This document shows positions 3,327 through 43,600 of a stretch of 45,376 bases of DNA, piece by piece. This DNA comes from Candidatus Stahliibacteriota bacterium (GTDB lineage: Bacteria; Hydrothermota; UBA3072). The stretch lies in the NCBI GenBank assembly GCA_030668705.1, contig DAOVFB010000002.1:1-45376 (forward strand). Direction: 5' to 3'. Position 1 is the stretch's first letter. Every line of letters begins with the position of its first letter. A program made the translations under genes and the position numbers. Below the pieces are notes generated by a model. That model had not been told where the DNA came from. It searched no databases and worked only from the letters and a program-made list of their open reading frames with translations.

Positions 3327-4994
3327 TTAATAAGCCTCAAATTCCTCCAGCCTGAGGAACTCTTCCAATTTTCTCCTCTGATTACACCTCCTCATCTTTC
3401 GGAGAGCATTTGCCTCTATCTGTCTAATGCGTTCCCTTGTGACATTGAACATCAACCCTACATCCTCAAGTGTTTTCTGATTTCCATCTATTAGGCCGAA
3501 GCGCAACTGGAGCACTTTCTTCTCCCTGGGGGATAAAGCTGTATTCAAAGCCTCTTCTAAATATTCTCCTATCAAAGTAAGACATGTATTCTTCGCAGGT
3601 GAAAGAACATCCGTATCAGGGATAACATCCCCCAGAAGAACTTCTTCATCACCTGTAGCCGGGTCTTCTAAGGATAATGAACCGTGATCAAGTTCCCGGG
3701 CAATTCTTATCTTATCCATAGAAAAACCTGTCATTTCAGAGATTTCTTCAAGCGAAGGTTCTACACCATTTTCCTGAACCCAATTATGTTGTACTTTTTT
3801 GATTTTATTTATAACGGCAACTGCATGAACAGGAATGCGAATTGTATCGTGCTGTTCAGCTAAAGCTTTTGCTATTGCTTGCTTTATCCACCAAATACCA
3901 TAAGTGGAAAATTTATAACCTTTCAGATGATCAAATTTCTCCACTGCTTTTATCAGTCCTGTATTCCCTTCCTGAACCGCATCCATAAAGTCAACTCCCC
4001 TCCGAAAATACTTCTTTGCAATTGCTATTACCAGACAAATATTGGCCTCAATTAGTTGCCTTTTAGCTTTAAGAAAATATTCTTCCCATTTTTGTATCTT
4101 CTTCATCCTCGATTTGACTTCATCCCAATTTGCATGAATTTCTTTATTGAAATCCTTTAGAGCCTGCTTACGGCTTTCAACGGCTTTTCCGAGTCTTATT
4201 AATTCATCATCATTAGAATCCTTAATACGAATACATCCTTTATCCTGACCTATTCTTGAATGTAACTTTGCCTCCATGGAATCAATTGCGTCAACCATAC
4301 TCTGCTGTCTGTTGTATATCCCTTTTTGGACTTTAAGCATCCTTTTGAGATAAGGAGTTTGAATACGCAAAGTCTGAATCTCATCTATTATCCTTTTTTC
4401 ATACCTTTTATATCTCAGTTTATACCTTTCTCTGCCAGTATCAACATATACATCCTTATATTTTATGAGTCCTGCCCTCCATTTTCGCACCTTCTTCATA
4501 ATCTTCTTAAGCGACTGCTTTTCCCGATATCCATTATAACCTTTTGACCATTGGTGGTTATTGAGGTAGAGAAACTGTTCTATAGGGAGTGAAGCACTTT
4601 CTAGCCGTTCTTTATAGCTCAGGAATTCACTAATTACTGGGATGGACCGAAATAGGTATTTAGAAATCATTTTACGGCCCCTTTCCATTTTCGAGCCGAT
4701 ACTACACTCTCCTTCTCTCGTTAGAAGGCAAATGTTCTTTATCTCACGGAGATATAGTTTTATTGGTTCATCTGTTTGTCTGAGTGCTTGTTGACTTTTG
4801 TTATTTATTCGCTCCTTTACCTCCTCTTCCTCCTCGGTTAGAACATCGATACCACCTTTCTCTAATCTACTAATTATCTTTTTTAAATTTTTTTCTTCAA
4901 TGTCGAGTTCTCTCCTAAGGTCACTAAGGTTAATGTCGCCCTCACTGTTTACCAAATCCATAATCTCTTCCCAGACAATGCCATCAGATTCCAT
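3327..4994 (-). CDS. rpoD: RNA polymerase sigma-70 factor, RpoD-like, with divergent region 2
   Basis: Directly downstream of dnaG; region 1.2 (EPIKLYLREI), long non-conserved region, QEGNTGLIKAVEKFD, KFSTY, TIRIPVH, region 4 (TLEDVG...VTRERIRQIE). Confidence 0.88.
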   Translation of the reverse strand: MESDGIVWEEIMDLVNSEGDINLSDLRRELDIEEKNLKKIISRLEKGGIDVLTEEEEEVKERINNKSQQALRQTDEPIKLYLREIKNICLLTREGECSIGSKMERGRKMISKYLFRSIPVISEFLSYKERLESASLPIEQFLYLNNHQWSKGYNGYREKQSLKKIMKKVRKWRAGLIKYKDVYVDTGRERYKLRYKRYEKRIIDEIQTLRIQTPYLKRMLKVQKGIYNRQQSMVDAIDSMEAKLHSRIGQDKGCIRIKDSNDDELIRLGKAVESRKQALKDFNKEIHANWDEVKSRMKKIQKWEEYFLKAKRQLIEANICLVIAIAKKYFRRGVDFMDAVQEGNTGLIKAVEKFDHLKGYKFSTYGIWWIKQAIAKALAEQHDTIRIPVHAVAVINKIKKVQHNWVQENGVEPSLEEISEMTGFSMDKIRIARELDHGSLSLEDPATGDEEVLLGDVIPDTDVLSPAKNTCLTLIGEYLEEALNTALSPREKKVLQLRFGLIDGNQKTLEDVGLMFNVTRERIRQIEANALRKMRRCNQRRKLEEFLRLEEFEAY

Positions 4995-6672
4995 TAGTCA
5001 CCCCCTTTCGCATTCGCTCTCTCTTTTCTATGAGATCCTTGATTTCTCTAAGGAGCTCACTTCCATCACCTCCGCTCTCCTCAATTTTTTGTAATTCCCT
5101 ATCCTTTCTCTCTTTAAGTTCATTCAATAGGAAATTTTTTAATCCAATAGCGGAAGATAGGACAGAAATCTCGGGCTTCTCGTTTTCCCTCACAAGATAA
5201 TCTATATGGCTTTTAGGCAGTGATTCTATAATATCGTCAAGTTTCATCTCACCCCCCTCTTTTAACAATCTTAAAGCTTTCCTTAAATAGGGATTGCTAA
5301 TCTCTTCGTCATTAATTAGAGAAAATACTGTATCCTTTTCTTCTGGCCTTTGTGCTATTGCATAGAGCAGACTCAACTCGCACATCTCTCGCTCCGAGAC
5401 AGGAGTGATTTTCTCTATTTTTGAAGATGGACGCATGGGCTCTTTTGCCTCCAGAAGATACTCTTCTATCATCAATTTTCCGGACACTGCTTTCCTGTAT
5501 ATTTCTTTTTTAATAGGATCCTTAATTTGACTCAACATTGCAGATACACGTTCTATTGCCTTAGAAAGGCCTAAAGGAGATGCAAGGTCATATTCTTCTT
5601 TTATGCGATCAAGTGTATAATCGAATAATTCACTTGCCAGAGAGAGTAAACGCTGGAATTCTTTCTTTCCACCCTCAAGAATTATCTCGTCAGGGTCCTT
5701 CTTTGCGCCTGTATTTCCAACTTTTACGTTCACGCCACGGTCAAGTAACATACCCAAAGACCTGAGAGTTGCTGCTCTACCTGCCTTATCTCTATCAAAG
5801 AATATAATAACTTCGTTTGCGTATCGCGAAAGAAGTTCTGCCTGATCATTAGTTAAAGCAGTTCCAAGGCAGGCAACGGAGTTCTTGATATCCGCTTGAT
5901 ACAGGGAAAGGAAATCAAAATACCCTTCTACGAGAATTATCCTACCTTCCCTTCTTATATCCTCTTTTGTATGCCAGAGACTGTAGAGGTTTTTCCCTTT
6001 CTTATGGATAGGCGTATCAGGAGAGTTTAAATATTTTGGTCCAATTTTACTTAACCTTCTACCACCAAAACCTATCAGCTGCCCCCCTGAAGAGAACAAA
6101 GGGAAAAGAAGACGCAAAAAGAAGCGATCTTTTACAGTGGTGCCTGTTCTTTTTATAAGTCCTGAAGTAAGAAGGTCTTCTATCTTGAATTTTTTCTTTG
6201 CCACCTTTAAAAATTCACTGCCAGAAGGAGCAAATCCTAATTGGAATTCGTCAATCGTTTCTTCTTTTATTCCTCTTTTCCCTAGATACCCGAGAACCTT
6301 TGATGACTTTTGTAAGGAATCATGATAAAATTCTGCAGCAAAATCATGTATTGAATACAATACTTTATTTTTTCCTCCAAATTCCCCAATCTCTATACCT
6401 GCTTTATTTGCAAGCATCCGAACAGCTTCCTGAAAAGGCACTTTTTCGTACTCCATTACAAAGGTAATTATATCACCACTCTTTCCACAACCGAAGCAAT
6501 GAAAAAAGTTAAGTTCTGGAGTGACATAAAAGGACGGAGTATCATCCTCATGAAAGGGGCAATTTGTCACATAATTCTTTCCGGATTTCTTTAAGGGTAG
6601 ATATTCTTCGATAAGGTCAACTATATTGATAGCATCTTTGATTTGATGAACTACCCCCTCTGTAATTGACAT
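4984..6672 (-). CDS. dnaG: DNA primase
   Basis: CHC2 zinc finger (CPFH...FHCFGC), KYLNSPDT, TOPRIM motifs VEGYFD and FDRDKAG. Start moved from TTG 6705 to ATG 6672 (MSITEG). Confidence 0.96.
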   Translation of the reverse strand: MSITEGVVHQIKDAINIVDLIEEYLPLKKSGKNYVTNCPFHEDDTPSFYVTPELNFFHCFGCGKSGDIITFVMEYEKVPFQEAVRMLANKAGIEIGEFGGKNKVLYSIHDFAAEFYHDSLQKSSKVLGYLGKRGIKEETIDEFQLGFAPSGSEFLKVAKKKFKIEDLLTSGLIKRTGTTVKDRFFLRLLFPLFSSGGQLIGFGGRRLSKIGPKYLNSPDTPIHKKGKNLYSLWHTKEDIRREGRIILVEGYFDFLSLYQADIKNSVACLGTALTNDQAELLSRYANEVIIFFDRDKAGRAATLRSLGMLLDRGVNVKVGNTGAKKDPDEIILEGGKKEFQRLLSLASELFDYTLDRIKEEYDLASPLGLSKAIERVSAMLSQIKDPIKKEIYRKAVSGKLMIEEYLLEAKEPMRPSSKIEKITPVSEREMCELSLLYAIAQRPEEKDTVFSLINDEEISNPYLRKALRLLKEGGEMKLDDIIESLPKSHIDYLVRENEKPEISVLSSAIGLKNFLLNELKERKDRELQKIEESGGDGSELLREIKDLIEKRERMRKGVTNGI

Positions 6673-7723
6673 AATGGAAATTATGTAATTATATTTTTTT
6701 CGCAACCCCCCTAATTAATAATCTATATCTTTAATTCAATCTCCCACAAGGGTCACAAAAGAAGATCAGCCACAGAGGCACAGAGAACACAGAGAAGAGA
6801 TTTTGTTTTGCAGGAAGGAAGATTAGACACAGATTTACACAGATATCAACTGATTAACTACTAAATCCTAAACCCTAAAACCTAAGACCAAACACCTAAC
6901 AATGCCACAGAGACACAGAGAACACAGAGAAGAATTTTTTTGTGTAAAAAACGCACACCACCAAAAATTAGCCACGGCAAACTCACGGTTAATTTTCAAT
7001 AAAGGTGATATGTGATAGAACTCAAGCAAGAAGACAAGCAGGTGATATGTGTTATGAGATAGAAGATGAATATGCACGTATCCCTTATCACTTACCACTT
7101 ATCACATACCACATATCCCATATCACCCTACGAACCCAACGAACCCTATGAACTCAATAAACCCAGAACACACCACCCAAGGAAATGAAACCGCAGATAA
7201 ACGCAGATAGATATGAATAAAAGACACACACCACCAAAGGGTTATGCCACGGTAAACTCACGGTTATTTTTTAATAAAGACACACACCACCAAATCCTAA
7301 ATCCTATATCCTAAATCCTAACCCCTGAATTAGACACAGATTTACACTGATATCAACTGATTAATATAAACTAAGAACACTGAACTCAGAACTAAATTTT
7401 AGACACAGATTTACACAGATTTGAACTGATTTTCATTCAAAATTTATAATTCATAATTCAACATTAGAAACAATAAACCCAAGACCTAAAAGCTGGACGC
7501 TCGACGCAAGGGACGCTATGAACGCAACAGACGCAATAGACGCAATGGACGCTCGACTCTCGACTAATTCCCACATATCACGTATCTCTTATCACTTACC
7601 ACTTATCACATACCACATATCCCATATTACTTACCACTTATCACATACCACGATAGTCCTTAACATACCAACCGACTAACCGACCAACTTATATACTTAT
7701 AGCTATTTTGTTGATAGCCTGGA

Positions 7724-7742
7724 GTAGCAGAGCTTGCTCTGC
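7724..7742. repeat. GTAG-type REP-like palindrome
   Basis: GTA-GCAGAGC-TT-GCTCTGC: a 7-bp perfect stem whose 5' end overlaps a GTAG tetranucleotide. Confidence 0.65.
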
Positions 7743-7762
7743 GTTGCCATGGCGCGAAACTT

Positions 7763-7790
7763 GTAGAGGCAATTCATGAATTGCCCCTAC
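7763..7790. repeat. GTAG-type REP-like palindrome (28 bp)
   Basis: GTAGAGGCAATTCATGAATTGCCCCTAC is self-complementary except one A/C pair; the GTAG...CTAC ends are typical of RAYT (TnpA-REP)-associated REPs. Confidence 0.8.
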
Positions 7791-7873
7791 TCCAATTCTA
7801 TCTTTTGACACTTTGCTCTATACTCTAAACTCTCTACGCTATATTCTTTCTCTCGACCCACTCATCTCACTCC

Positions 7874-7907
7874 TTGACTAACCAGGATGGATATTTATAA
7901 TAATAAT
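7874..7907 (+). promoter_or_regulatory. polA promoter TTGACT-16-TATAAT, 6 nt before the ATG (leaderless)
   Basis: TTGACT at 7874-7879, TATAAT at 7896-7901, ATG at 7908. Confidence 0.78.
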
Positions 7908-10385
7908 ATGGGTAAATTAATCCTTCTTATTGACGGCTACTCTCTTGCATACCGCTCGTACTATGCTTTCATAAATAATCCACTGACTACTTCCGGGGGA
8001 CAACCGGTATCTGCCGTATTTGGCTTTACCCGAAGTTTAAAAAGGGTTCTTGAAGAATTAAAGCCGGATTACGGTGCTATCTGTCTCGATCGTCCCGAGC
8101 TTACTTTCAGAAAGAAAAAATATGCCGATTATAAAGCGCAAAGAAAAAAGATGCCAGAAGAACTTAGAGAACAAATTCCTTATATTATCAAAATATGTGA
8201 AGCAGCTGGGCTTTCAGTTATTACCCAACCTGGTTATGAAGCTGACGATATAATTGCTACTATAACAGGGAAAGCACGCGCTGAAGGAATAGAAACAGTA
8301 ATATTCACTCTGGATAAAGACCTAATGCAACTTACTGAGGATGGAGTAACCATATTAAATATGCGCACAGCGGGAGAAGAATGGATAGATAGGGAAAAAG
8401 TGGAGGAAAAATTTGGAATTCCCCCAGAACAATTATTGGATTTTCTTTCAATCACTGGAGATAGCTCTGATAATATACCCGGTATTAAAGGCATAGGGAA
8501 AAAAACAGCCAGCAAATTATTAGAAGAATTTGGTTCCCTTGAAAATATCTTTTCCAGCCTGGACAATATCAAAAACCCCTCGATAAGGAAAAAATTGGAA
8601 GGAAAAAAAGATGAAGCATTGAGATGGAAAGAATTAATACAATTAGAAAAAGATGTTCCTCTGGAGAAAGACATAGAAGAATTAAAGTATACCGGAATTA
8701 ACCGGGAAGATTTAGAACGGATACTTAATCAACTTGAGTTCTATTCTCTTTCAAGGGAATGGGTAAGGAAGGATACGAACTCTATTGATTATACTATTGT
8801 TGATAGAATAAAGATAGGGAAAAGAGATAATCTATCCCTCTTTCCAATAGAAGAAAATATAGCCATATCTAATGGAAGGGAACTAATGGTATGCAGTGAA
8901 AAAGAAGTCAACTCTATTCTACATAAAATGGACTGGAATTCATTGCTTACCGAAGATGCAAAAGAAATTGCCCATCTTCTCGGTTATTACCCTGAAGGTC
9001 ATATACTGGATATTTCGGTTATGCACTACCTGCTTTCACCAAACAGAAAGAACCATACACTAAACCGTATTCTTATTGAAATGGGGCTTTCGGTAAAAAA
9101 TGAAGGAGCTAAGGCAATTCTCCTGCATAAAGTGGCGGAAAACCTGGTAAATAATTTAAAGGCAAATGGTCTATTCGAACTTTATAAAGAGATAGAAGAA
9201 CCACTTATAGGTATATTGTTTTCCATGGAGAAACACGGAATACTTTTTAATATAGAGTTACTTAAAGAGCTTCAAGCCTCCATGGGAATAGAAATCAAGG
9301 AGACCGAGCAGAAGATATATGAACTGGCTGGCGAGGAATTTAATATCCGTTCATCCAAACAATTGGCAGAAATCCTGTTTACCAAGATGGGGTTACCTGT
9401 AGTGAAAACCACAAAGACAGGTTGCTCCACCGATATAGAGGTTCTCACCGCCCTATTAAACAGAAATCCTATAATAGCAGAAATATTGGAGTTTAGAGAA
9501 ATAGATAAATTAAAATCATCCTATATAAATTCTTTGATTGATTGCATTGACACCGAAACCGGGCGCATCTACACTACGTTCCAGCAGACTGTGGCCGCTA
9601 CGGGAAGAATTACAGCCAGAGACCCAAATTTACAAACACTCCCGATAAGAAGTGATAGAGGCCGGATGATAAGACAAGCAGTTATTGCTCCACCCGGATA
9701 TCATATTCTCTCATGTGATTATTCTCAAATAGAACTCAGAGTACTAGCGCATCTCTCAGGTGATGAAAAATTGATAGAGGATTTCATAAAAGGGGGTGAT
9801 ATTCATTCCATAACTGCCTCAAGAATTTTCGGCATTGAGCCAGGAGATGTTACAGCAGCCATGAGAAGGCGGGCAAAAGCGGTAAACTTTGGTATCATTT
9901 ACGGGATAAGTCCTTATGGACTCTCAAAACAACTCCGTATAACTCCAAAAGATGCCGGTATGATAATAGAGACTTATTACTCATCTCACAGCGGTGTGGA
10001 AAGCTGGCAAAAGGAAACAATAGATGCAGCTATTGATTCAGGTTGGGTTGAAACAATTTTCAGAAGAAAAAGGTGGATTCCTGAATTGCAAAATCTACGG
10101 CAGAAGGAGTATGGAAAAAGAATTGCTATGAATAGCCCTATACAGGGTAGTGCAGCAGACATCGTAAAAAAAGCTATGATAACGATTCAGGAAAGAATAG
10201 AAAAACTTGGATTAGATACCAGGATGATTCTCCAGATTCACGATGAGCTCCTCTTCGAGGTCCCGGAAAGAGAAAAGAGGGATATAATTGACCTAATTAT
10301 ACCAATTATGGAGTCTGTTATTGATTTAAGGGTTCCCCTAAAGGTAGGATACAAGCTTGGCGAGAACTGGGATGAAGCGCATTAG
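7908..10385 (+). CDS. polA: DNA polymerase I (5'-3' exonuclease plus polymerase; short, degenerate 3'-5' exonuclease domain)
   Basis: LIDGYSLAYRSYYA, YEADD, GDSSDNIPG; motif A DYSQIELR, motif B RRRAKAVNFGIIYG, motif C QIHDEL. Start moved from 7887 to 7908. Confidence 0.97.
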   Translation: MGKLILLIDGYSLAYRSYYAFINNPLTTSGGQPVSAVFGFTRSLKRVLEELKPDYGAICLDRPELTFRKKKYADYKAQRKKMPEELREQIPYIIKICEAAGLSVITQPGYEADDIIATITGKARAEGIETVIFTLDKDLMQLTEDGVTILNMRTAGEEWIDREKVEEKFGIPPEQLLDFLSITGDSSDNIPGIKGIGKKTASKLLEEFGSLENIFSSLDNIKNPSIRKKLEGKKDEALRWKELIQLEKDVPLEKDIEELKYTGINREDLERILNQLEFYSLSREWVRKDTNSIDYTIVDRIKIGKRDNLSLFPIEENIAISNGRELMVCSEKEVNSILHKMDWNSLLTEDAKEIAHLLGYYPEGHILDISVMHYLLSPNRKNHTLNRILIEMGLSVKNEGAKAILLHKVAENLVNNLKANGLFELYKEIEEPLIGILFSMEKHGILFNIELLKELQASMGIEIKETEQKIYELAGEEFNIRSSKQLAEILFTKMGLPVVKTTKTGCSTDIEVLTALLNRNPIIAEILEFREIDKLKSSYINSLIDCIDTETGRIYTTFQQTVAATGRITARDPNLQTLPIRSDRGRMIRQAVIAPPGYHILSCDYSQIELRVLAHLSGDEKLIEDFIKGGDIHSITASRIFGIEPGDVTAAMRRRAKAVNFGIIYGISPYGLSKQLRITPKDAGMIIETYYSSHSGVESWQKETIDAAIDSGWVETIFRRKRWIPELQNLRQKEYGKRIAMNSPIQGSAADIVKKAMITIQERIEKLGLDTRMILQIHDELLFEVPEREKRDIIDLIIPIMESVIDLRVPLKVGYKLGENWDEAH

Positions 10386-40699: not shown

Positions 40700-43600
40700 T
40701 GTTCTAAAGAAAGTAATACCATCACATAACGAACGCGTATTAAAAGGACTTTATCCAATCGTTGATGAAATAAATAGAAAGTGGGAGGGGTTTAAAAAAC
40801 TAAAGGAAGAGGACCTACCAGGAAAAACAGAGGAATTCAAACAAAGATTAAAAGAAGGTGAAACGGTTGATAATTTAATAGTAGAGGCTTTTGCACTTGT
40901 AAAAAGAACATGTGAACTTATGCTGGGCAAATCCTGGATGATTACAGGCTTAGAATGGGAATGGGGAATGATTCCGTTTGATGTCCAGTTAGTCGGAGCC
41001 ATAGTCCTCCATCAGGGAAATATTGCAGAAATGAAAACAGGAGAGGGTAAAACCCTTGCCGCTACAATGCCTCTATACCTCAACGCACTTTCCGGGAAAG
41101 GGGCTCATCTGGTAACTGTAAACGATTATTTGGCAAGAAGGGACCGAGAATGGATGGGGCCCATCTATGAAGCCCTTGGGTTAACAGTAGGAGTCATACA
41201 AAGCGAGATGAAACCCGAAGAGAGGATAGTAGAATACAACTGCGATATCACCTACGGAACCAACAATGAGTTTGGATTTGATTATCTAAGAGACAATATG
41301 GCAGTAATTCCAGAATACCGCGTCCAGCGAGGGCATAATTATGCTATAGTCGACGAAGTAGACTCTGTACTTATCGATGAAGCAAGAACCCCTTTGATTA
41401 TCTCTGGCCCGGTGCAACACTCAGTGACACGGCAATATGAAGAAATAAAGCCAGCTGTGGAAGAGATGGTTCACAAACAGACACTTATGTCAAACAGACT
41501 GATTGCAGAAGCCAAGGTACTATTTAAAGAAGGGAAAGAAAAAGAAGCAGGGGAAAATTTACTTCTGGCTAAAAGGGGGGCCCCAAAAAACAAGCAATTG
41601 TTAAAACTCCTGCATGATCCAGACCTTGAACAATTAGTACTGATTACAGAGTCCAGATATATCAAAGATAAAAACATGCACGAGATAGATGAACAATTAT
41701 ATTTCTCCATTGATGAAAGAGAGCATTCAACAAATATATCGGAAAAAGGACAGGACCTGATTACCCGAAGAGAACGTGAAAATTTTTTCCTATTACCAGA
41801 TTTATCCATACAACTGCATGAAATAGAGAATGACAAATCCCTCTCATCCAGAGAAATGATAGTGGAAAAAGAAGCCATTGAACGTGAATACGCGGAGAAA
41901 TCAGAGAGAATACATGCAGCAAATCAGCTTACCAAAGCCTATGCTTTATTTGAGAAGGACGTTGAATATATAGTAAAACAGGGAAGAATACTAATTGTAG
42001 ATGAATTTACAGGACGCCTCATGCCAGGACGGAGATACTCAGACGGTCTCCATCAAGCACTGGAAGCAAAAGAAAAAGTGGAAGTAGAACGGGAAACACA
42101 GACCTTCGCTCAGATAACCCTCCAGAATTACTTTAAGATGTATGATAAACTTTCAGGCATGACAGGAACAGCTGCCACAGAAGCAGCGGAATTCACGGAC
42201 ATCTACGGACTGGATGTAGTGCAGATACCAACTAATAAACCTGTTCGGAGAATTAATTACGAAGACCTTATCTACCGAACAAGAAGAGAAAAATACAACG
42301 CAATAATAAAAAAAATCAAGGAATTACATAAAAATGGTCTTCCTATTCTTGTAGGTACAGTCTCTGTTGATGTTTCCGAACTCCTCTCAAGGATGTTAAA
42401 GAGAGAAGGAATCCCGCACCAAGTCTTGAACGCGAAATACCATGAGAAAGAATCAAAGGTTATAAGTCATGCAGGCGAAAAGGGCCAGGTTACCATTGCT
42501 ACCAACATGGCAGGAAGAGGGACCGATATAAAATTGGCAAGAGAGATAGTAAAATGTGATGAATGTAGTTTAAAACTTGAGGAGGGACAGAAACCCCCTG
42601 AAGATATTGATGTCAATGCGTGCAAAGAAAATGTACCCTGTGGCCTACATGTTGTTGGAACCTCAAGACATGAGGCGAGAAGAATTGATAATCAGCTACG
42701 TGGACGTTCAGGAAGGCAGGGGGATCCTGGTGCTTCTCGATTTTATGTATCCCTGGAAGACAATCTCATGCGTATTTTTGCAACCGAAAGGATAGCTCAT
42801 GCTATGGATAGGATGGGTATCGAGGAGGGAGAGCCAGTAAAGCATCCTCTTATCTCAAAAGCTATAGAGAATGCCCAGAAACGCGTAGAACGAATGAATT
42901 TCGATATAAGAAAGAGATTACTTGAATTTGACGACGTGATGAACAAGCAAAGAGAGGTTATCTATAAAATAAGAAATGATATACTGGATGGTAAGGATCT
43001 TAGAAACAGCGTGATAGAATGGATAGAGGATACCCTCTATGAAACAATAGATTCTTACCTCTCTGGAAAATATCCCGATGAGTGGGACTGGGATGGCTTT
43101 AAAACTGACCTGATAGAATTTTTCCTGCTCGATTTTGATTTAGGTAAAGAGGAGAGAGCGCGAATTGACAAAAAGAAACTTGAAGAGGACCTGGAAAAAT
43201 TAGTTGAGGCACGCTACAATGAGAAAGAAAAAATGATTGGTGAAGAAATGATGAGAGAATTCGAACGTCTAATCATCCTCAGGGTAATAGATAACCAATG
43301 GCGTGACCATCTGTATGAATTGGACGCACTAAGGGAAGGTATAAACTTACGAAGTTTTGCACAAAAGGATCCACTTGTAGAGTACAAACGGGAATCCTTT
43401 ACAATGTTTGAGTATCTCCTCTTAAATATAGCTAAATCGTCAGTGAGACTATTATACCGTTTCCGCCCAGAGGCAGTAGAGGTACCGAAAGAAATTCGAG
43501 GAGTTGAGGTAAAGGAAGAATTTCAAGGGGTCGAGATGAAAGAGGAAAAGAAAGTAAAAGTGCCTACGGAAGAAATACCAACCATAGGGAATCCTGAACT

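What the first reader, a model, noticed from the sequence alone, without database searches (positions are those of the whole stretch)
6743..7872. 1.1-kb non-coding mosaic of many different short tandem-repeat modules between divergent dnaG and polA
Seen: in an otherwise tightly packed window this interval has no credible gene, is A/C-rich on the + strand, and is built almost entirely of about 20-55 bp modules, each being 2-7 imperfect copies of a 7-10 bp unit. Order: CACAGAG(A) 6769; ACACAGAT 6823; AAATCCT 6861; CACAGAG 6904; CACGG 6971; GTGATAT 7004/7041; TATCACA 7075; GAACCCAAC 7127; ACGCAGAT 7191; CACGG 7246; AAATCCT 7292; ACACAGAT 7330; GAACT 7368; ACACAGAT 7399; ATAATTC 7432; GACGCAATA 7495; TATCACA 7571-7651; ACCGACTA 7667; two REPs; ACTCTAT 7815. 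Simple slippage would expand one unit rather than interleave a dozen. Inference: this is an accumulation site where discrete modules are inserted repeatedly. From my recollection of genome contexts (not a characterised mechanism), units like these flank small sporadically distributed genes such as GxxExxY proteins (CACAGAG/CACAGAT/CGCAGAT units) and four-helix-bundle proteins (7-mer units). The locus could therefore be an array of empty or non-autonomous sites of an undescribed repeat-flanked mobile or cassette system, or a protein-binding or structural DNA/RNA scaffold.
Basis: partly seen in the sequence, partly recalled or inferred. Interest (0 to 1): 0.85.

Follow-up and report, generated by a model that had tools for sequence, protein, structure and literature searches.

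The report
Pile-up of orphan gene-cassette repeat arms
The 1.1-kb gap between the dnaG and polA promoters is a real stack of about seventeen short repeat modules, all facing the same way, which elsewhere in this bacterial family bracket two kinds of tiny genes, so it looks like a dumping ground for gene-less ends of a little-known cassette system.

Summary
TRF finds 14 arrays in 6743-7872, against a mean of 0.39 in 100 shuffles. No ORF there matches Pfam. Almost all of 6765-7815 recurs 20-170 times in this 1.9-Mb draft genome. It is the largest of 72 such clusters, which make up 14% of the non-ORF DNA.

In 20 genomes of the same bacterial family, the same unit types form matched inverted arms. 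CACAGAG, CAGAT/CTGAT and CGCAGAT units flank GxxExxY genes. CCTAA, TATCACA, GAACCCAAC and GTTGAGTA units flank four-helix-bundle genes.

In this genome the arms are almost all gene-less, solo and co-oriented: 437 adjacent pairs face the same way and 9 do not. Each module's closest copy lies elsewhere in the genome. Paralogues lack an 82-86-bp two-module insert. Relatives carry about 125 bp, about 400 bp or other modules at the same site. Metagenomes show a variant lacking the 193-bp REP-bearing element, and changes of one 9-bp unit.

My best reading is a tolerated hot spot that collects orphan cassette ends by copying guided by the modules already there. The copying mechanism is not shown, and short reads do not confirm the internal order of modules. 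The scan had flagged the cassette class on other DNA. I found no paper describing it.

The parts
4984..6672 (-). dnaG (DNA primase). The ORF list gives a TTG at 6705, but the likely start is the ATG at 6672.
   Evidence: TIGR01391, E 1.5e-125. tblastn homology to relatives begins at residue 12 of the listed ORF, which is 6672.
6693..6711 (-). Conserved stretch TTTTTTTCGCAACCCCCC upstream of dnaG. Read on the minus strand it gives TTGCGA as a probable -35 box. It marks the left edge of the unique DNA.
   Evidence: The same motif stands upstream of dnaG in G003 and G004. 6700-6760 has 0 copies elsewhere in the genome. The promoter role is inferred.
6769..6820 (+). CACAGAG arm (3 units) plus its ~28-nt spacer. 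This is a GxxExxY-type arm.
   Evidence: TRF row 6771-6796. 19 copies cover >=80% of its length elsewhere. The same arm flanks GxxExxY genes at G000:C88, G005:C165 and G004:C517.
6823..6857 (+). ACACAGAT-ACACAGAT-AACTGAT arm (CAGAT/CTGAT family). This is a GxxExxY-type arm.
   Evidence: 151 copies elsewhere, best 100%. It is the arm of the GxxExxY gene at G000:C29 (L180). It is part of the 82-86 bp missing from 5 paralogues.
6861..6902 (+). CCTAA-type 7-mer array (AAATCCT, AAACCCT, AAAACCT, AAGACCT).
   Evidence: TRF row 6861-6899. 33 copies elsewhere. The same units form the arms of four-helix-bundle genes L185, L186, L190, L187, L189 and L195.
6903..6945 (+). Second CACAGAG arm with an AT-rich tail.
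   Evidence: TRF row 6906-6931. 43 copies elsewhere, best 97.4%.
6950..7003 (+). One ~55-nt 'bead': connector CACACCACC, then linker, then CCACGGnAAACTCACGG arm, then tail ..AATAAAG.
   Evidence: 27 copies elsewhere, best 98%. The copy inside the interval (7223-7279) is only 85% alike. Bead grammar is shown.
7004..7127 (+). Gene-less two-armed hairpin element (GTGATAT arms facing TATCACA arms). It resembles a four-helix-bundle cassette that has lost its gene.
   Evidence: Inverted pairs I1 and I2. Together with 6971-7003 it occurs in 10 further copies at 92.8-99.3% identity with differing flanks. Similar arms flank four-helix-bundle genes L193, L194 and L213.
7127..7167 (+). GAACCCAAC 9-mer array.
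   Evidence: TRF rows 7125-7165. 31 copies elsewhere, best 100%. The same 9-mers stand downstream of four-helix-bundle genes L191, L196 and L199.
7168..7222 (+). Bead: connector, then CGCAGAT arm, then tail ..AATAAAAG.
   Evidence: Regex hit 7192-7208. The CGCAGAT family has 74 copies in the genome. CGCAGAT arms flank GxxExxY genes L178, L182 and L171.
7223..7279 (+). Bead: connector, then CCACGG arm, then tail.
   Evidence: 40 copies elsewhere, best 95.2%.
7280..7330 (+). Bead: connector, then AAATCCT 7-mer array, then ..GAATTAG.
   Evidence: TRF row 7292-7321, 91% matches. 29 copies elsewhere, best 97%.
7331..7465 (+). Two CAGAT/CTGAT arms, each followed by a short array (GAACT-type units, then ATAATTC units).
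   Evidence: Regex hits 7334-7360 and 7403-7429. 31 and 7 copies elsewhere, best 98.8% and 92.7%.
7466..7565 (+). Low-copy stretch with the GACGCAATA 9-mer array (7503-7552). The unit number varies between populations.
   Evidence: TRF row 7503-7552. No copy covers >=80% of it elsewhere. 9 bases are left out at 7522 in run X5, and AGACGCAAT is put in at 7528 in run X15.
7566..7655 (+). CACATAT/TATCACA 7-mer array, about 10 units with a 35-bp super-period.
   Evidence: TRF rows 7572-7651, score 125. 6 copies elsewhere.
7661..7853 (+). REP-bearing element (palindrome 7763-7790 and a shorter hairpin near 7730-7745) with its linker. It is present or absent in different populations.
   Evidence: A joint 7660->7854 is seen in runs X1, X7 and X15, while X5 holds a contig running 7829-7933. 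7674-7812 is 94-95% identical at C13, C4, C85, C106 and C136. Hairpins are shown.
7874..7901 (+). Probable polA promoter: TTGACT, 16 nt, TATAAT. The ATG lies 6 nt after the -10 box.
   Evidence: 11 of 12 consensus matches. The same arrangement is seen in G003. 7840-7900 has 0 copies elsewhere.
7908..10385 (+). polA (DNA polymerase I). The ORF list starts at 7887, but homology supports the ATG at 7908.
   Evidence: NF004397, E 1.1e-274.

Best explanation
The interval is non-coding DNA that lies upstream of both the dnaG and polA promoters. It is a stack of dispersed repeat modules.

The modules are gene-less remnants of two families of small-gene cassettes. One family carries GxxExxY nuclease-like genes and the other carries four-helix-bundle genes. 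In intact cassettes the ends are matched inverted arms of 2-5 tandem units of 7-10 nt. The interval also holds one empty two-armed hairpin and one REP-bearing element.

The site tolerates extra DNA and has collected modules one or a few at a time. New modules arrive in the orientation of those already present.

I think the most likely route is homology-guided copying from other clusters. That would be ectopic gene conversion or template switching that starts and ends in shared pieces such as the CACACACCACC connector. Unit slippage adds minor length changes. REP elements would be moved separately by the RAYT-like transposases.

Shown: what the modules are, their copy numbers, their co-orientation, their independent origins, and variation between relatives and populations. 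Inferred: the copying mechanism, the lack of a cellular function, and the promoter positions.
For: The modules are dispersed repeats.
- Almost all of 6765-7815 has 20-170 blastn copies elsewhere in the genome. Only 6700-6760 and 7825-7886 are unique.
- Family copy numbers against a 3rd-order Markov simulation are 57/0, 154/0, 74/0, 90/1, 70/0, 74/0, 45/0, 106/1 and 77/0. More than 93% of copies lie outside ORFs of >=110 aa.

The modules are cassette arms.
- I examined the 30 best of 49 GxxExxY places in 20 family genomes. 28 had both flanks. 16 of those 28 had an inverted upstream/downstream match scoring >=14, against 1 of 100 random genes of this genome.
- I examined the 30 best of 90 four-helix-bundle places. 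27 had both flanks. 16 of those 27 scored >=14 and 20 of 27 scored >=12.
- The unit types of those arms are the ones found in the interval.

The modules were acquired independently. Each module's closest copy is elsewhere in the genome. Five paralogues lack the 82-86 bp two-module block.

Acquisition is guided by resident modules.
- Adjacent modules face the same way in 380 pairs and opposite ways in 66. After flipping my arbitrary orientation for the 8-mer family, the counts are 437 and 9.
- Clusters on one contig differ in orientation, and orientation tracks neither gene direction nor GC skew.
- 72 intergenic regions hold >=5 modules, where a Poisson model expects 0.77.

There is turnover.
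- The dnaG-polA gap is about 125 bp in G003 and about 400 bp with other modules in G004. In G005 and G012 the contig breaks just upstream of polA.
- The orthologous cluster in G004 (C175) and G000 (C72) uses the same vocabulary in a different order.
- One junction in genus g2 is clean, or holds a solo arm, an empty hairpin or a full cassette, depending on the species.
- Metagenomes show the 193-bp element present or absent, and changes of one 9-bp unit.

No function is evident. Rfam and Pfam find nothing.
Against: - Module sequences are 90-100% identical between G000 and G004, whose flanking genes are only 73-82% identical in DNA. The CACAGAG arm recurs unchanged in other families of the phylum and in >=100 stretches of GC-rich IMG/VR contigs. 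Junk DNA would not normally be kept this well. This points to selection, to recognition by a conserved factor, or to ongoing horizontal spread.
- Most arm families (CGCAGAT, CCACGG, CCTAA, TATCACA, GAACCCAAC, GTTGAGTA) have no cognate gene in this genome, which holds only 2 GxxExxY genes and 1 four-helix-bundle gene. Even so, some of their copies are 99-100% identical.
- In other genomes the arms occur mainly as inverted pairs. Here same-family neighbours are direct in 157 cases and inverted in 16. This is unexplained.
- I found no target-site duplication for any module.
- No read or contig spans the interval.
- Gene calls are my crude longest-ORF calls. The module families are regular expressions that I wrote from this interval.
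Confidence: 0.55

Rival explanations
1. The modules are moved by a dedicated, orientation-specific mobile machinery. The candidates are the cassette-encoded GxxExxY nuclease-like proteins or the RAYT-like Y1 transposases. Insertion occurs next to a motif carried by resident modules, so clusters grow head to tail.
For: - There are precise, recurrent module boundaries such as ..TTAG|ACACAGAT and ..TAAAG|.
- Multi-copy composites are 97-99% identical with unrelated flanks.
- A full cassette in G005 sits exactly between a stop and a start codon that abut in G000:C172. A 9-bp GG(T/A)GGATAA lies on both sides of it.
- Four Y1_Tnp ORFs are present.
- The 193-bp element is present or absent between populations.
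- Co-orientation is near total.
Against: - No duplication flanks any solo module, and the one cassette duplication is a single case.
- Most arm families lack a cognate gene in this genome.
- Orientation does not follow a replication proxy.
- Y1 transposases act on hairpins, and the solo arms do not fold.
- No reverse transcriptase or TnpB gene was found.
Confidence: 0.25
2. The cluster is kept by selection as an array of binding sites, for cassette proteins or for a host nucleoid or regulatory protein. It would shape DNA structure or tune the divergent dnaG and polA promoters.
For: - Module sequences are better conserved between genera than the neighbouring genes.
- The cluster has strict polarity.
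- The same site holds a cluster in G000, G004 and probably G005.
- The cluster ends 50-60 bp from each putative -35 box.
Against: - Content, order and length differ at orthologous sites, and G003 has almost nothing there.
- Parts of the interval are polymorphic within the species.
- Clusters occur in all four gene-orientation contexts, with no preferred direction relative to genes.
- No candidate binding protein is encoded for most families.
Confidence: 0.15
3. The interval, or its internal order, is an artefact of assembling short reads from hundreds of near-identical repeats.
For: - No contig in four metagenomes spans it, and contigs stop at 6735-6797 and restart at 7829-7854.
- 81 of 348 contig ends in this genome lie in such repeats.
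- Many alternative joints are seen.
Against: - Both edges are reproduced in four independent studies at single-copy depth.
- Junction-spanning unitigs have depth close to the flanks: 6779-6866, 7177-7266, 7408-7574 and 7829-7933.
- Comparable clusters lie inside other contigs, and at the orthologous site in relatives.
Confidence: 0.08
4. The cluster is transcribed and acts as RNA, for example as an unstructured A/C-rich or G/U-rich sponge, or as a set of small RNAs.
For: - Uniform strand polarity would give one long biased-composition transcript.
- In genus g2, solo arms lie between a promoter-like site and the start of the next gene.
Against: - Rfam gives 0 matches.
- The fold shows little structure outside the one hairpin element and the REPs.
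- The interval lies upstream of both mapped promoter-like sites.
- The ATG of the apparent mini-ORFs is replaced by TAG in many copies.
Confidence: 0.05

Closest known systems
STRR, the short tandemly repeated repetitive heptamers of heterocystous cyanobacteria (recalled; no paper on them was read here)
   Same: Short tandem arrays of 7-nt units. They are intergenic, occur in many copies per genome in several unit families, and have no known function.
   Different: Here at least 12 unit families of 7-10 nt are packed head to tail in clusters with one polarity. The units are different, the lineage is not cyanobacterial, and the arrays can be tied to the arms of two gene cassettes.
TAACTGA direct repeats of marine Beggiatoaceae, Cyanobacteria and Bacteroidetes (MacGregor 2015, PMC4679880; abstract and outline read)
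   Same: Intergenic heptamer repeats with 2-6 copies per set. Their patchy distribution across phyla suggests horizontal spread with no evident mechanism.
   Different: Those are one unit type, mostly a few nucleotides upstream of start codons, and were proposed to be translational regulators. Here AACTGAT occurs once per CAGAT arm. The clusters lie upstream of promoters and show no fixed relation to genes.
REP/BIME mosaics and REPINs of proteobacteria (PMC2817692, PMC3333891, PMC3116915; seen only in a search listing)
   Same: Intergenic mosaics built from a small vocabulary of short motifs. They occur in hundreds of copies, are linked to a domesticated Y1 transposase, and vary between strains. 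One true REP-type element is part of this interval.
   Different: BIMEs are palindromes in alternating orientation. Here 16 of 17 modules are non-palindromic tandem-unit arrays, all on one strand.
ORF-carrying intervening sequences of 23S rRNA that encode the four-helix-bundle 'S23p' protein (PF05635; the biology is recalled, and the comparison was suggested by earlier scan notes)
   Same: A small four-helix-bundle gene enclosed by inverted arms. The same layout surrounds PF05635 genes in this bacterial family.
   Different: The interval has no gene and only one two-armed element. It is not in an rRNA gene. RNase III processing cannot be assumed for solo arms.
Minisatellites with interspersed variant repeats, and pneumococcal BOX elements (boxA-boxBn-boxC) (both recalled)
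   Same: Chains of ~55-nt units sharing a connector and differing in their interior. Unit number changes by slippage or conversion.
   Different: The beads are spread over more than 70 loci. They carry arms identical to the ends of gene cassettes.

Membership tests
Tandem-unit arms of GxxExxY (TIGR04256) cassettes | 2-4 tandem units of about 8 nt of the type CAC(N)(A/G)A(G/T), beginning G(C/A)CAC | tested here: met
   The arms at 6769, 6823, 6903, 6971, 7191, 7246, 7331 and 7399 have the unit types seen beside GxxExxY genes in G000:C88, G000:C29 and relatives.
Tandem-unit arms of GxxExxY (TIGR04256) cassettes | A matched inverted partner arm, with the gene between the two arms | tested here: not met
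   There is no GxxExxY ORF and no inverted partner in 6700-7900. The arms are solo. Genome-wide, same-family neighbours are direct in 157 cases and inverted in 16.
Tandem-unit arms of four-helix-bundle (PF05635) cassettes | Arms of 3-6 tandem 7-9-mers whose unit matches between the two sides of the gene | tested here: met
   CCTAA/AAATCCT, TATCACA, GAACCCAAC and GTTGAGTA units flank PF05635 genes in relatives. The first three unit types occur in the interval.
Tandem-unit arms of four-helix-bundle (PF05635) cassettes | Inverted pair enclosing the gene | tested here: inconclusive
   7004-7127 has both arms but only ~45-96 nt between them and no gene. The other 7-9-mer arrays are solo.
MITE (miniature inverted-repeat transposable element) | Terminal inverted repeats, many near-identical copies and a target-site duplication | tested here: inconclusive
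   6971-7126 has inverted arms and 10 further copies at 92.8-99.3%. No duplication is visible at its variable flanks. The solo modules have no inverted repeats.
BIME / REP cluster | Palindromic units in alternating orientation, separated by short linkers | tested here: not met
   Only one 14+14 palindrome (7763-7790) and one shorter hairpin are present. All 17 modules are on one strand.
STRR of cyanobacteria | Tandem heptamers of the published consensus units in heterocystous cyanobacteria | not tested
   I know the published units only from recall, and no cyanobacterial genome was compared. None of the commonest units here is one I recall as STRR.
TAACTGA repeats (PMC4679880) | Direct repeats of TAACTGA, mostly just upstream of a start codon | tested here: not met
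   No TAACTGA tandem array is present in the interval. The cluster ends 93 bp before the polA ATG and begins 97 bp from the dnaG ATG.
CRISPR array | Identical repeats of 24-48 nt separated by unique spacers of similar length | tested here: not met
   The recurring connector is 11 nt. The 'spacers' come from a small vocabulary that recurs genome-wide.

The most novel reading that the evidence does not exclude
The modules are the working ends of an undescribed class of selfish gene cassettes. The termini of these cassettes are short arrays of 'words', read by the cassette's own small protein or by a conserved host factor. Orphan ends can still be copied, and they are added next to resident ends in a fixed polarity. 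A genome can therefore fill a seventh of its non-coding DNA with chains of about 55-nt beads. The same words recur unchanged across families of the phylum and in GC-rich viral-type contigs. This would make the system an old, horizontally spreading one. It could also explain the long-unexplained heptamer repeats of cyanobacteria and giant sulfur bacteria.
Probability: 0.3. Interest if true: 0.85.

Novelty: new variant of a known kind. Interest (0 to 1): 0.68.

Why it matters
Short tandem heptamer-type repeats between bacterial genes have been known for decades without an origin or a mechanism. This genome gives an unusually clear view of them.

- The repeats are not local slippage products. They are copies of about a dozen dispersed modules.
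- The modules are the same sequences that bracket two very widespread small genes of unknown role.
- The modules are better conserved between genera than the housekeeping genes beside them.
- They are stacked with near-perfect polarity.

These facts turn a descriptive oddity into testable questions. Which protein reads the words? How are orphan ends copied? Does a kilobase of them upstream of the primase and polymerase I promoters affect expression?

There is also a practical consequence. These clusters break short-read assemblies: 23% of the contig ends in this genome lie in them.

Tried and rejected
- Replication-linked polarity. Across 64 contigs, module orientation does not correlate with coding GC skew (rho -0.12) or gene-strand bias (rho 0.05). 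Clusters on one contig differ in orientation.
- Link to gene direction. There is none: 49/53 in ++ contexts and 55/56 in -- contexts.
- Local segmental duplication as the source of the interval. Rejected, because copies within the interval are less alike than copies elsewhere.
- Mini-ORFs starting at the ATG before the CCACGG, CGCAGAT and CACAGAG arms. Rejected, because the ATG is TAG in many copies.
- A fixed linear order of modules, as one long master element would give. Rejected, because bigrams run both ways, for example CAGAT->CCTAA 20 and CCTAA->CAGAT 24.
- Rfam. 0 matches in the interval. On five viral-contig hairpin loci there were only sub-threshold miRNA-precursor look-alikes.
- Naming the organism. 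The genome-contig scan with PolA returned only distant Patescibacteria-type PolA loci. The metagenome scan returned one relative that is the same sequence as G003, and no conspecific contig. The label 'WOR-3' comes from an earlier scan note and I did not check it.
- Expression. No RNA holder was listed for the stretch, so nothing can be said about transcription.
- GxxExxY or four-helix-bundle genes next to CACAGAG arms in IMG/VR contigs. Profiles built from the family's proteins gave 0 hits among 5,960 ORFs of 80 loci.
- DUF559, reverse transcriptase and TnpB families. Not found in this 93%-complete genome.
- Literature. 'GxxExxY' is in 3 papers, none about repeats. 'four helix bundle protein', '23S rRNA-intervening sequence protein', 'PDDEXK_3' and 'S23 ribosomal protein' are in 26 papers, and no listed title or abstract start deals with flanking repeats. 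The searches for STRR and for mosaic or dispersed repeats gave only the comparators named above.
Full report
**What is there**

The window is contig C93 of a 1.89-Mb draft genome with 174 contigs, 39.7% G+C and 93% estimated completeness. Homology to relatives begins at the ATG at 6672 for dnaG and at 7908 for polA.

A TTGACT-16-TATAAT site ends 6 nt before the polA ATG. The stretch TTTTTTTCGCAACCCCCC lies upstream of dnaG and is shared with two other genera. I infer that the repeat-rich part, about 6765-7815, lies between the two promoters and belongs to neither mRNA.

TRF finds 14 arrays covering 415 bases in 6743-7872. One hundred dinucleotide shuffles give a mean of 0.39 arrays, with a maximum of 2. 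The plus strand is A/C-rich: A 419, C 284, G 157, T 270. The five longest internal ORFs (40-76 aa) have no Pfam match, and Rfam finds nothing.

**The modules are dispersed repeats, not local slippage products**

A blastn search of 6700-7900 against the genome gives 1,463 hits outside the interval. Nearly every 20-bp bin between 6765 and 7815 has 20-170 copies. 6700-6760 and 7825-7886 have none.

I wrote regular expressions for the module types seen in the interval and counted them in the genome and in a 3rd-order Markov simulation of it:

| Module family | Genome | Simulation |
|---|---|---|
| CACAGAG | 57 | 0 |
| CAGAT/CTGAT | 154 | 0 |
| CGCAGAT | 74 | 0 |
| CCTAA-type 7-mers | 90 | 1 |
| CACATAT 7-mers | 70 | 0 |
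| GTTGAGTA 8-mers | 74 | 0 |
| GAACCCAAC 9-mers | 45 | 0 |
| CACACCACC connector | 106 | 1 |
| CCACGG..TCACGG | 77 | 0 |

More than 93% of the copies lie outside ORFs of 110 aa or more. These families are my own definitions, and the ORF calls are crude longest-ORF calls.

Genome-wide, TRF at score >=40 gives 818 rows, against 62 in the simulation. Dispersed copies keep the same order of unit variants, for example AAATCCT-AAACCCT-AAAACCT-AAGACCT. The imperfect arrays are therefore copied as wholes.

Sequence similar to the interval makes up 2.15% of the genome and 14.3% of the DNA outside long ORFs. It occurs at 81 of 348 contig ends, against 110 of 2,000 random windows.

Of 1,123 intergenic regions, 942 hold no module and 72 hold five or more. 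A Poisson model expects 0.77 regions with five or more. The dnaG-polA interval holds the most, 17.

**What the modules are**

The genome has two GxxExxY genes (TIGR04256) and one four-helix-bundle gene (PF05635).
- The C88 GxxExxY gene is bracketed by inverted CACAGAG arms.
- The C29 GxxExxY gene is bracketed by CAGAT/CTGAT arms.
- The C56 four-helix-bundle gene is bracketed by inverted AATGCAA 7-mers.

I then took the 30 best of 49 GxxExxY places and the 30 best of 90 four-helix-bundle places found in 20 genomes of the same bacterial family. For each I scored the best ungapped inverted match between 170 nt (or 130 nt) upstream and downstream.
- For GxxExxY, two loci lacked a flank. 16 of the remaining 28 scored 14 or more.
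- For the four-helix-bundle genes, three loci lacked a flank. 16 of the remaining 27 scored 14 or more, and 20 of 27 scored 12 or more.
- Among random genes of this genome, 1 of 100 reached 14.

By eye, most of the lower-scoring loci also have tandem-unit arms that the ungapped score misses.

The arm units beside GxxExxY genes are CACAGAG, CACAAAG, CGCAGAG, CGCAGAT, CACGAGAT, ACAGGAT, CACGAAT and similar. Beside the four-helix-bundle genes they are CCTAA/AAATCCT, GTGATAT/TATCACA, GAACCCAAC-type 9-mers, GTTGAGTA-type 8-mers, GGACTT, AGTCA and others. This is the vocabulary of the interval.

**How this genome differs**

Here the arms are almost all without a gene and without a partner. Same-family neighbours within 600 bp are direct in 157 cases and inverted in 16. 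Inside the interval the only inverted pairs are GTGATAT/TATCACC (7004-7127) and the REP palindrome.

The stretch 6971-7126 occurs in ten further copies at 92.8-99.3% identity, with unrelated flanks. It contains a CCACGG arm and the two-armed element. The two-armed element looks like a four-helix-bundle cassette that has lost its gene.

Modules are chained in one polarity.
- All 17 in the interval are on the plus strand.
- Genome-wide, adjacent modules face the same way in 380 pairs and opposite ways in 66.
- 54 of the 66 opposite pairs involve the 8-mer family, whose orientation I had set arbitrarily. With that family flipped, a post-hoc choice, the counts are 437 and 9.

Polarity is local. 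Clusters on one contig differ in orientation. Orientation follows neither gene direction nor GC skew nor gene-strand bias.

Many modules form beads of about 55 nt. Each bead has the connector CACACACCACC, a linker of about 10 nt, a three-unit arm and an AT-rich tail. Of 35 successive same-strand connectors within 600 bp, 19 are 50-69 bp apart. The reverse complement of the connector sits just inside the 3' arm of many cassettes in genus g2. This suggests that the beads derive from cassette ends.

**Evidence for accumulation and turnover**

For every module that has copies, the best copy is elsewhere in the genome. For example, the CCACGG bead is 98% identical to a copy elsewhere and 85% to the other copy in the interval. 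Five paralogous loci join 6769-6820 directly to 6903-6940. The interval therefore has an extra 82-86 bp there, made up of a CAGAT arm and a CCTAA array.

At the orthologous dnaG-polA position:
- G003 has about 125 bp between the start codons.
- G004 has about 400 bp with other modules and a different REP.
- G005 has modules up to a contig break 217 bp upstream of polA.
- In genus g2, dnaG is not the neighbour of polA.

A second orthologous cluster, G004:C175 against G000:C72, has the same borders and vocabulary but a different order and length, 656 against 338 bp.

I tested 52 cassette loci of relatives. Seven could be placed on this genome by both flanks, and I viewed five sites. Two are clean, with the flanking genes abutting. 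Three hold other modules or an empty hairpin.

One junction in genus g2 shows every state:

| State at the junction | Species |
|---|---|
| Clean | G008, G001 |
| Solo arm | G099, G012, G109 |
| Empty hairpin | G119, G007 |
| GxxExxY cassette, two different arm types | G009 and G116; G006 |
| Unrelated insert | G104 |

**Reads**

Twenty public runs from 15 studies of marine sediment, cold seep and salt marsh hold part of the stretch. I laid four of them on the window.
- All are Logan contigs. The unique flanks are present at depth 12-22 with 0-3 differences.
- Contigs stop at 6735-6797 and resume at 7829-7854. None spans the interval.
- Summed depth over the modules is hundreds to thousands.
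- Unitigs with depth close to the flanks cover 6779-6866, 7177-7266, 7408-7574 and 7829-7933. These support those junctions only.
- Three runs hold a form joining 7660 to 7854, which lacks the 193-bp REP-bearing element. In run X7 this form has the depth of the polA flank.
- One run lacks a 9-bp unit at 7522, and another has an extra unit at 7528.

No RNA holder was listed, so nothing can be said about expression.

**Conservation**

The interval's DNA finds matches in 18 of 18 other genomes of the family, and in 49 of 121 genomes sampled from the phylum (G000 included). It finds none in 4 genomes of the sister family.

In G004 the neighbouring genes are 73-82% identical to those of G000 in DNA, and 61-89% in protein. 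Modules are 90-100% identical over 30-114 bp.

The CACAGAG arm, as a pattern with 22 fixed bases, occurs in at least 100 stretches of IMG/VR contigs. There it is mostly in close inverted pairs in GC-rich DNA. By my own arithmetic, chance would give far fewer than one match. No GxxExxY or four-helix-bundle ORF was found in the 80 loci held.

**Interpretation**

The identity of the modules as orphan cassette ends is well supported. How they are copied is not.

Three facts point to acquisition guided by the modules already present: strict local polarity, strong clustering, and shared multi-module blocks with no target duplication. Copying between clusters through shared connectors (gene conversion or template switching) needs no dedicated enzyme and preserves orientation automatically. 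I favour it.

A polar, self-targeting transposition is the main rival. It is kept alive by:
- the clean cassette insertion in G005, with a possible 9-bp duplication;
- the near-identical composites;
- the four RAYT-like genes.

The cross-genus conservation of the words is the strongest argument that something reads them, whether a cassette protein or a host factor. I could not test this.

**Relation to earlier scan notes and to print**

Earlier notes of this scan describe inverted tandem-word arms around GxxExxY and four-helix-bundle genes in other phyla. They also describe the REP-bearing element in another piece of this genome. I treated these as leads. I tested the arm-gene link myself in this family, and the presence or absence of the REP element in reads.

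I found no paper that links these gene families to flanking tandem repeats. The library excludes most subscription journals, and supplements were closed.

Noticed in passing
window 7874-7910 and 6670-6712: Both polA and dnaG seem to be nearly leaderless. A -10-like hexamer ends 6-7 nt before the ATG supported by homology. The arrangement is conserved in G003.
   Followed up: partly
window 3327-4994 and 4984-6672: An rpoD-like sigma-70 gene lies directly downstream of dnaG and overlaps it by 11 bp. This is the classic dnaG-rpoD pairing.
   Followed up: no
window 43470-43543: A 27-bp tandem repeat (GAGGAGTAGAGGTAAAGAAAGAAATTC, about 2.7 copies). It is unrelated to the module vocabulary.
   Followed up: no
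G000:C56:18139-18462, C135:14466-14783, C9:12605-12922, C75:40003-40272: Four Y1 transposase (PF01797) matches sit in unusually long open frames (305, 305, 480 and 181 aa). They are likely RAYT-type genes for the GTAG-headed REPs. One lies 2 kb from the only four-helix-bundle gene.
   Followed up: no
L161 (G005:C165) against G000:C172 4540-4551: A GxxExxY cassette is inserted exactly between a stop and a start codon that abut (TAAATG) in G000. GG(T/A)GGATAA lies on both sides, and the right copy gives the downstream gene a new ribosome-binding site.
   Followed up: partly
L215-L225 (one junction in 11 genomes of genus g2): The same gene junction is clean, or carries a solo arm, an empty hairpin, a cassette with either of two arm types, or an unrelated 1.4-kb insert, depending on the species. 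Where a cassette is present, the downstream gene's own TTGACT..TAAAAT promoter-like site is missing.
   Followed up: partly
L226-L305 (IMG/VR contigs): TCACCACAGAG..CACAGAG / CTCTGTG..GTGGTGA hairpins are common in GC-rich contigs classed as viral. They sit in very different sequence contexts, with no GxxExxY gene nearby.
   Followed up: partly
G000:C97:23984-24076, C56:21960-22065, C24:954-1046, C152:9119-9212: The CACAGAG arm with its ~30-nt spacer forms ~58-bp units that are themselves tandemly duplicated.
   Followed up: no
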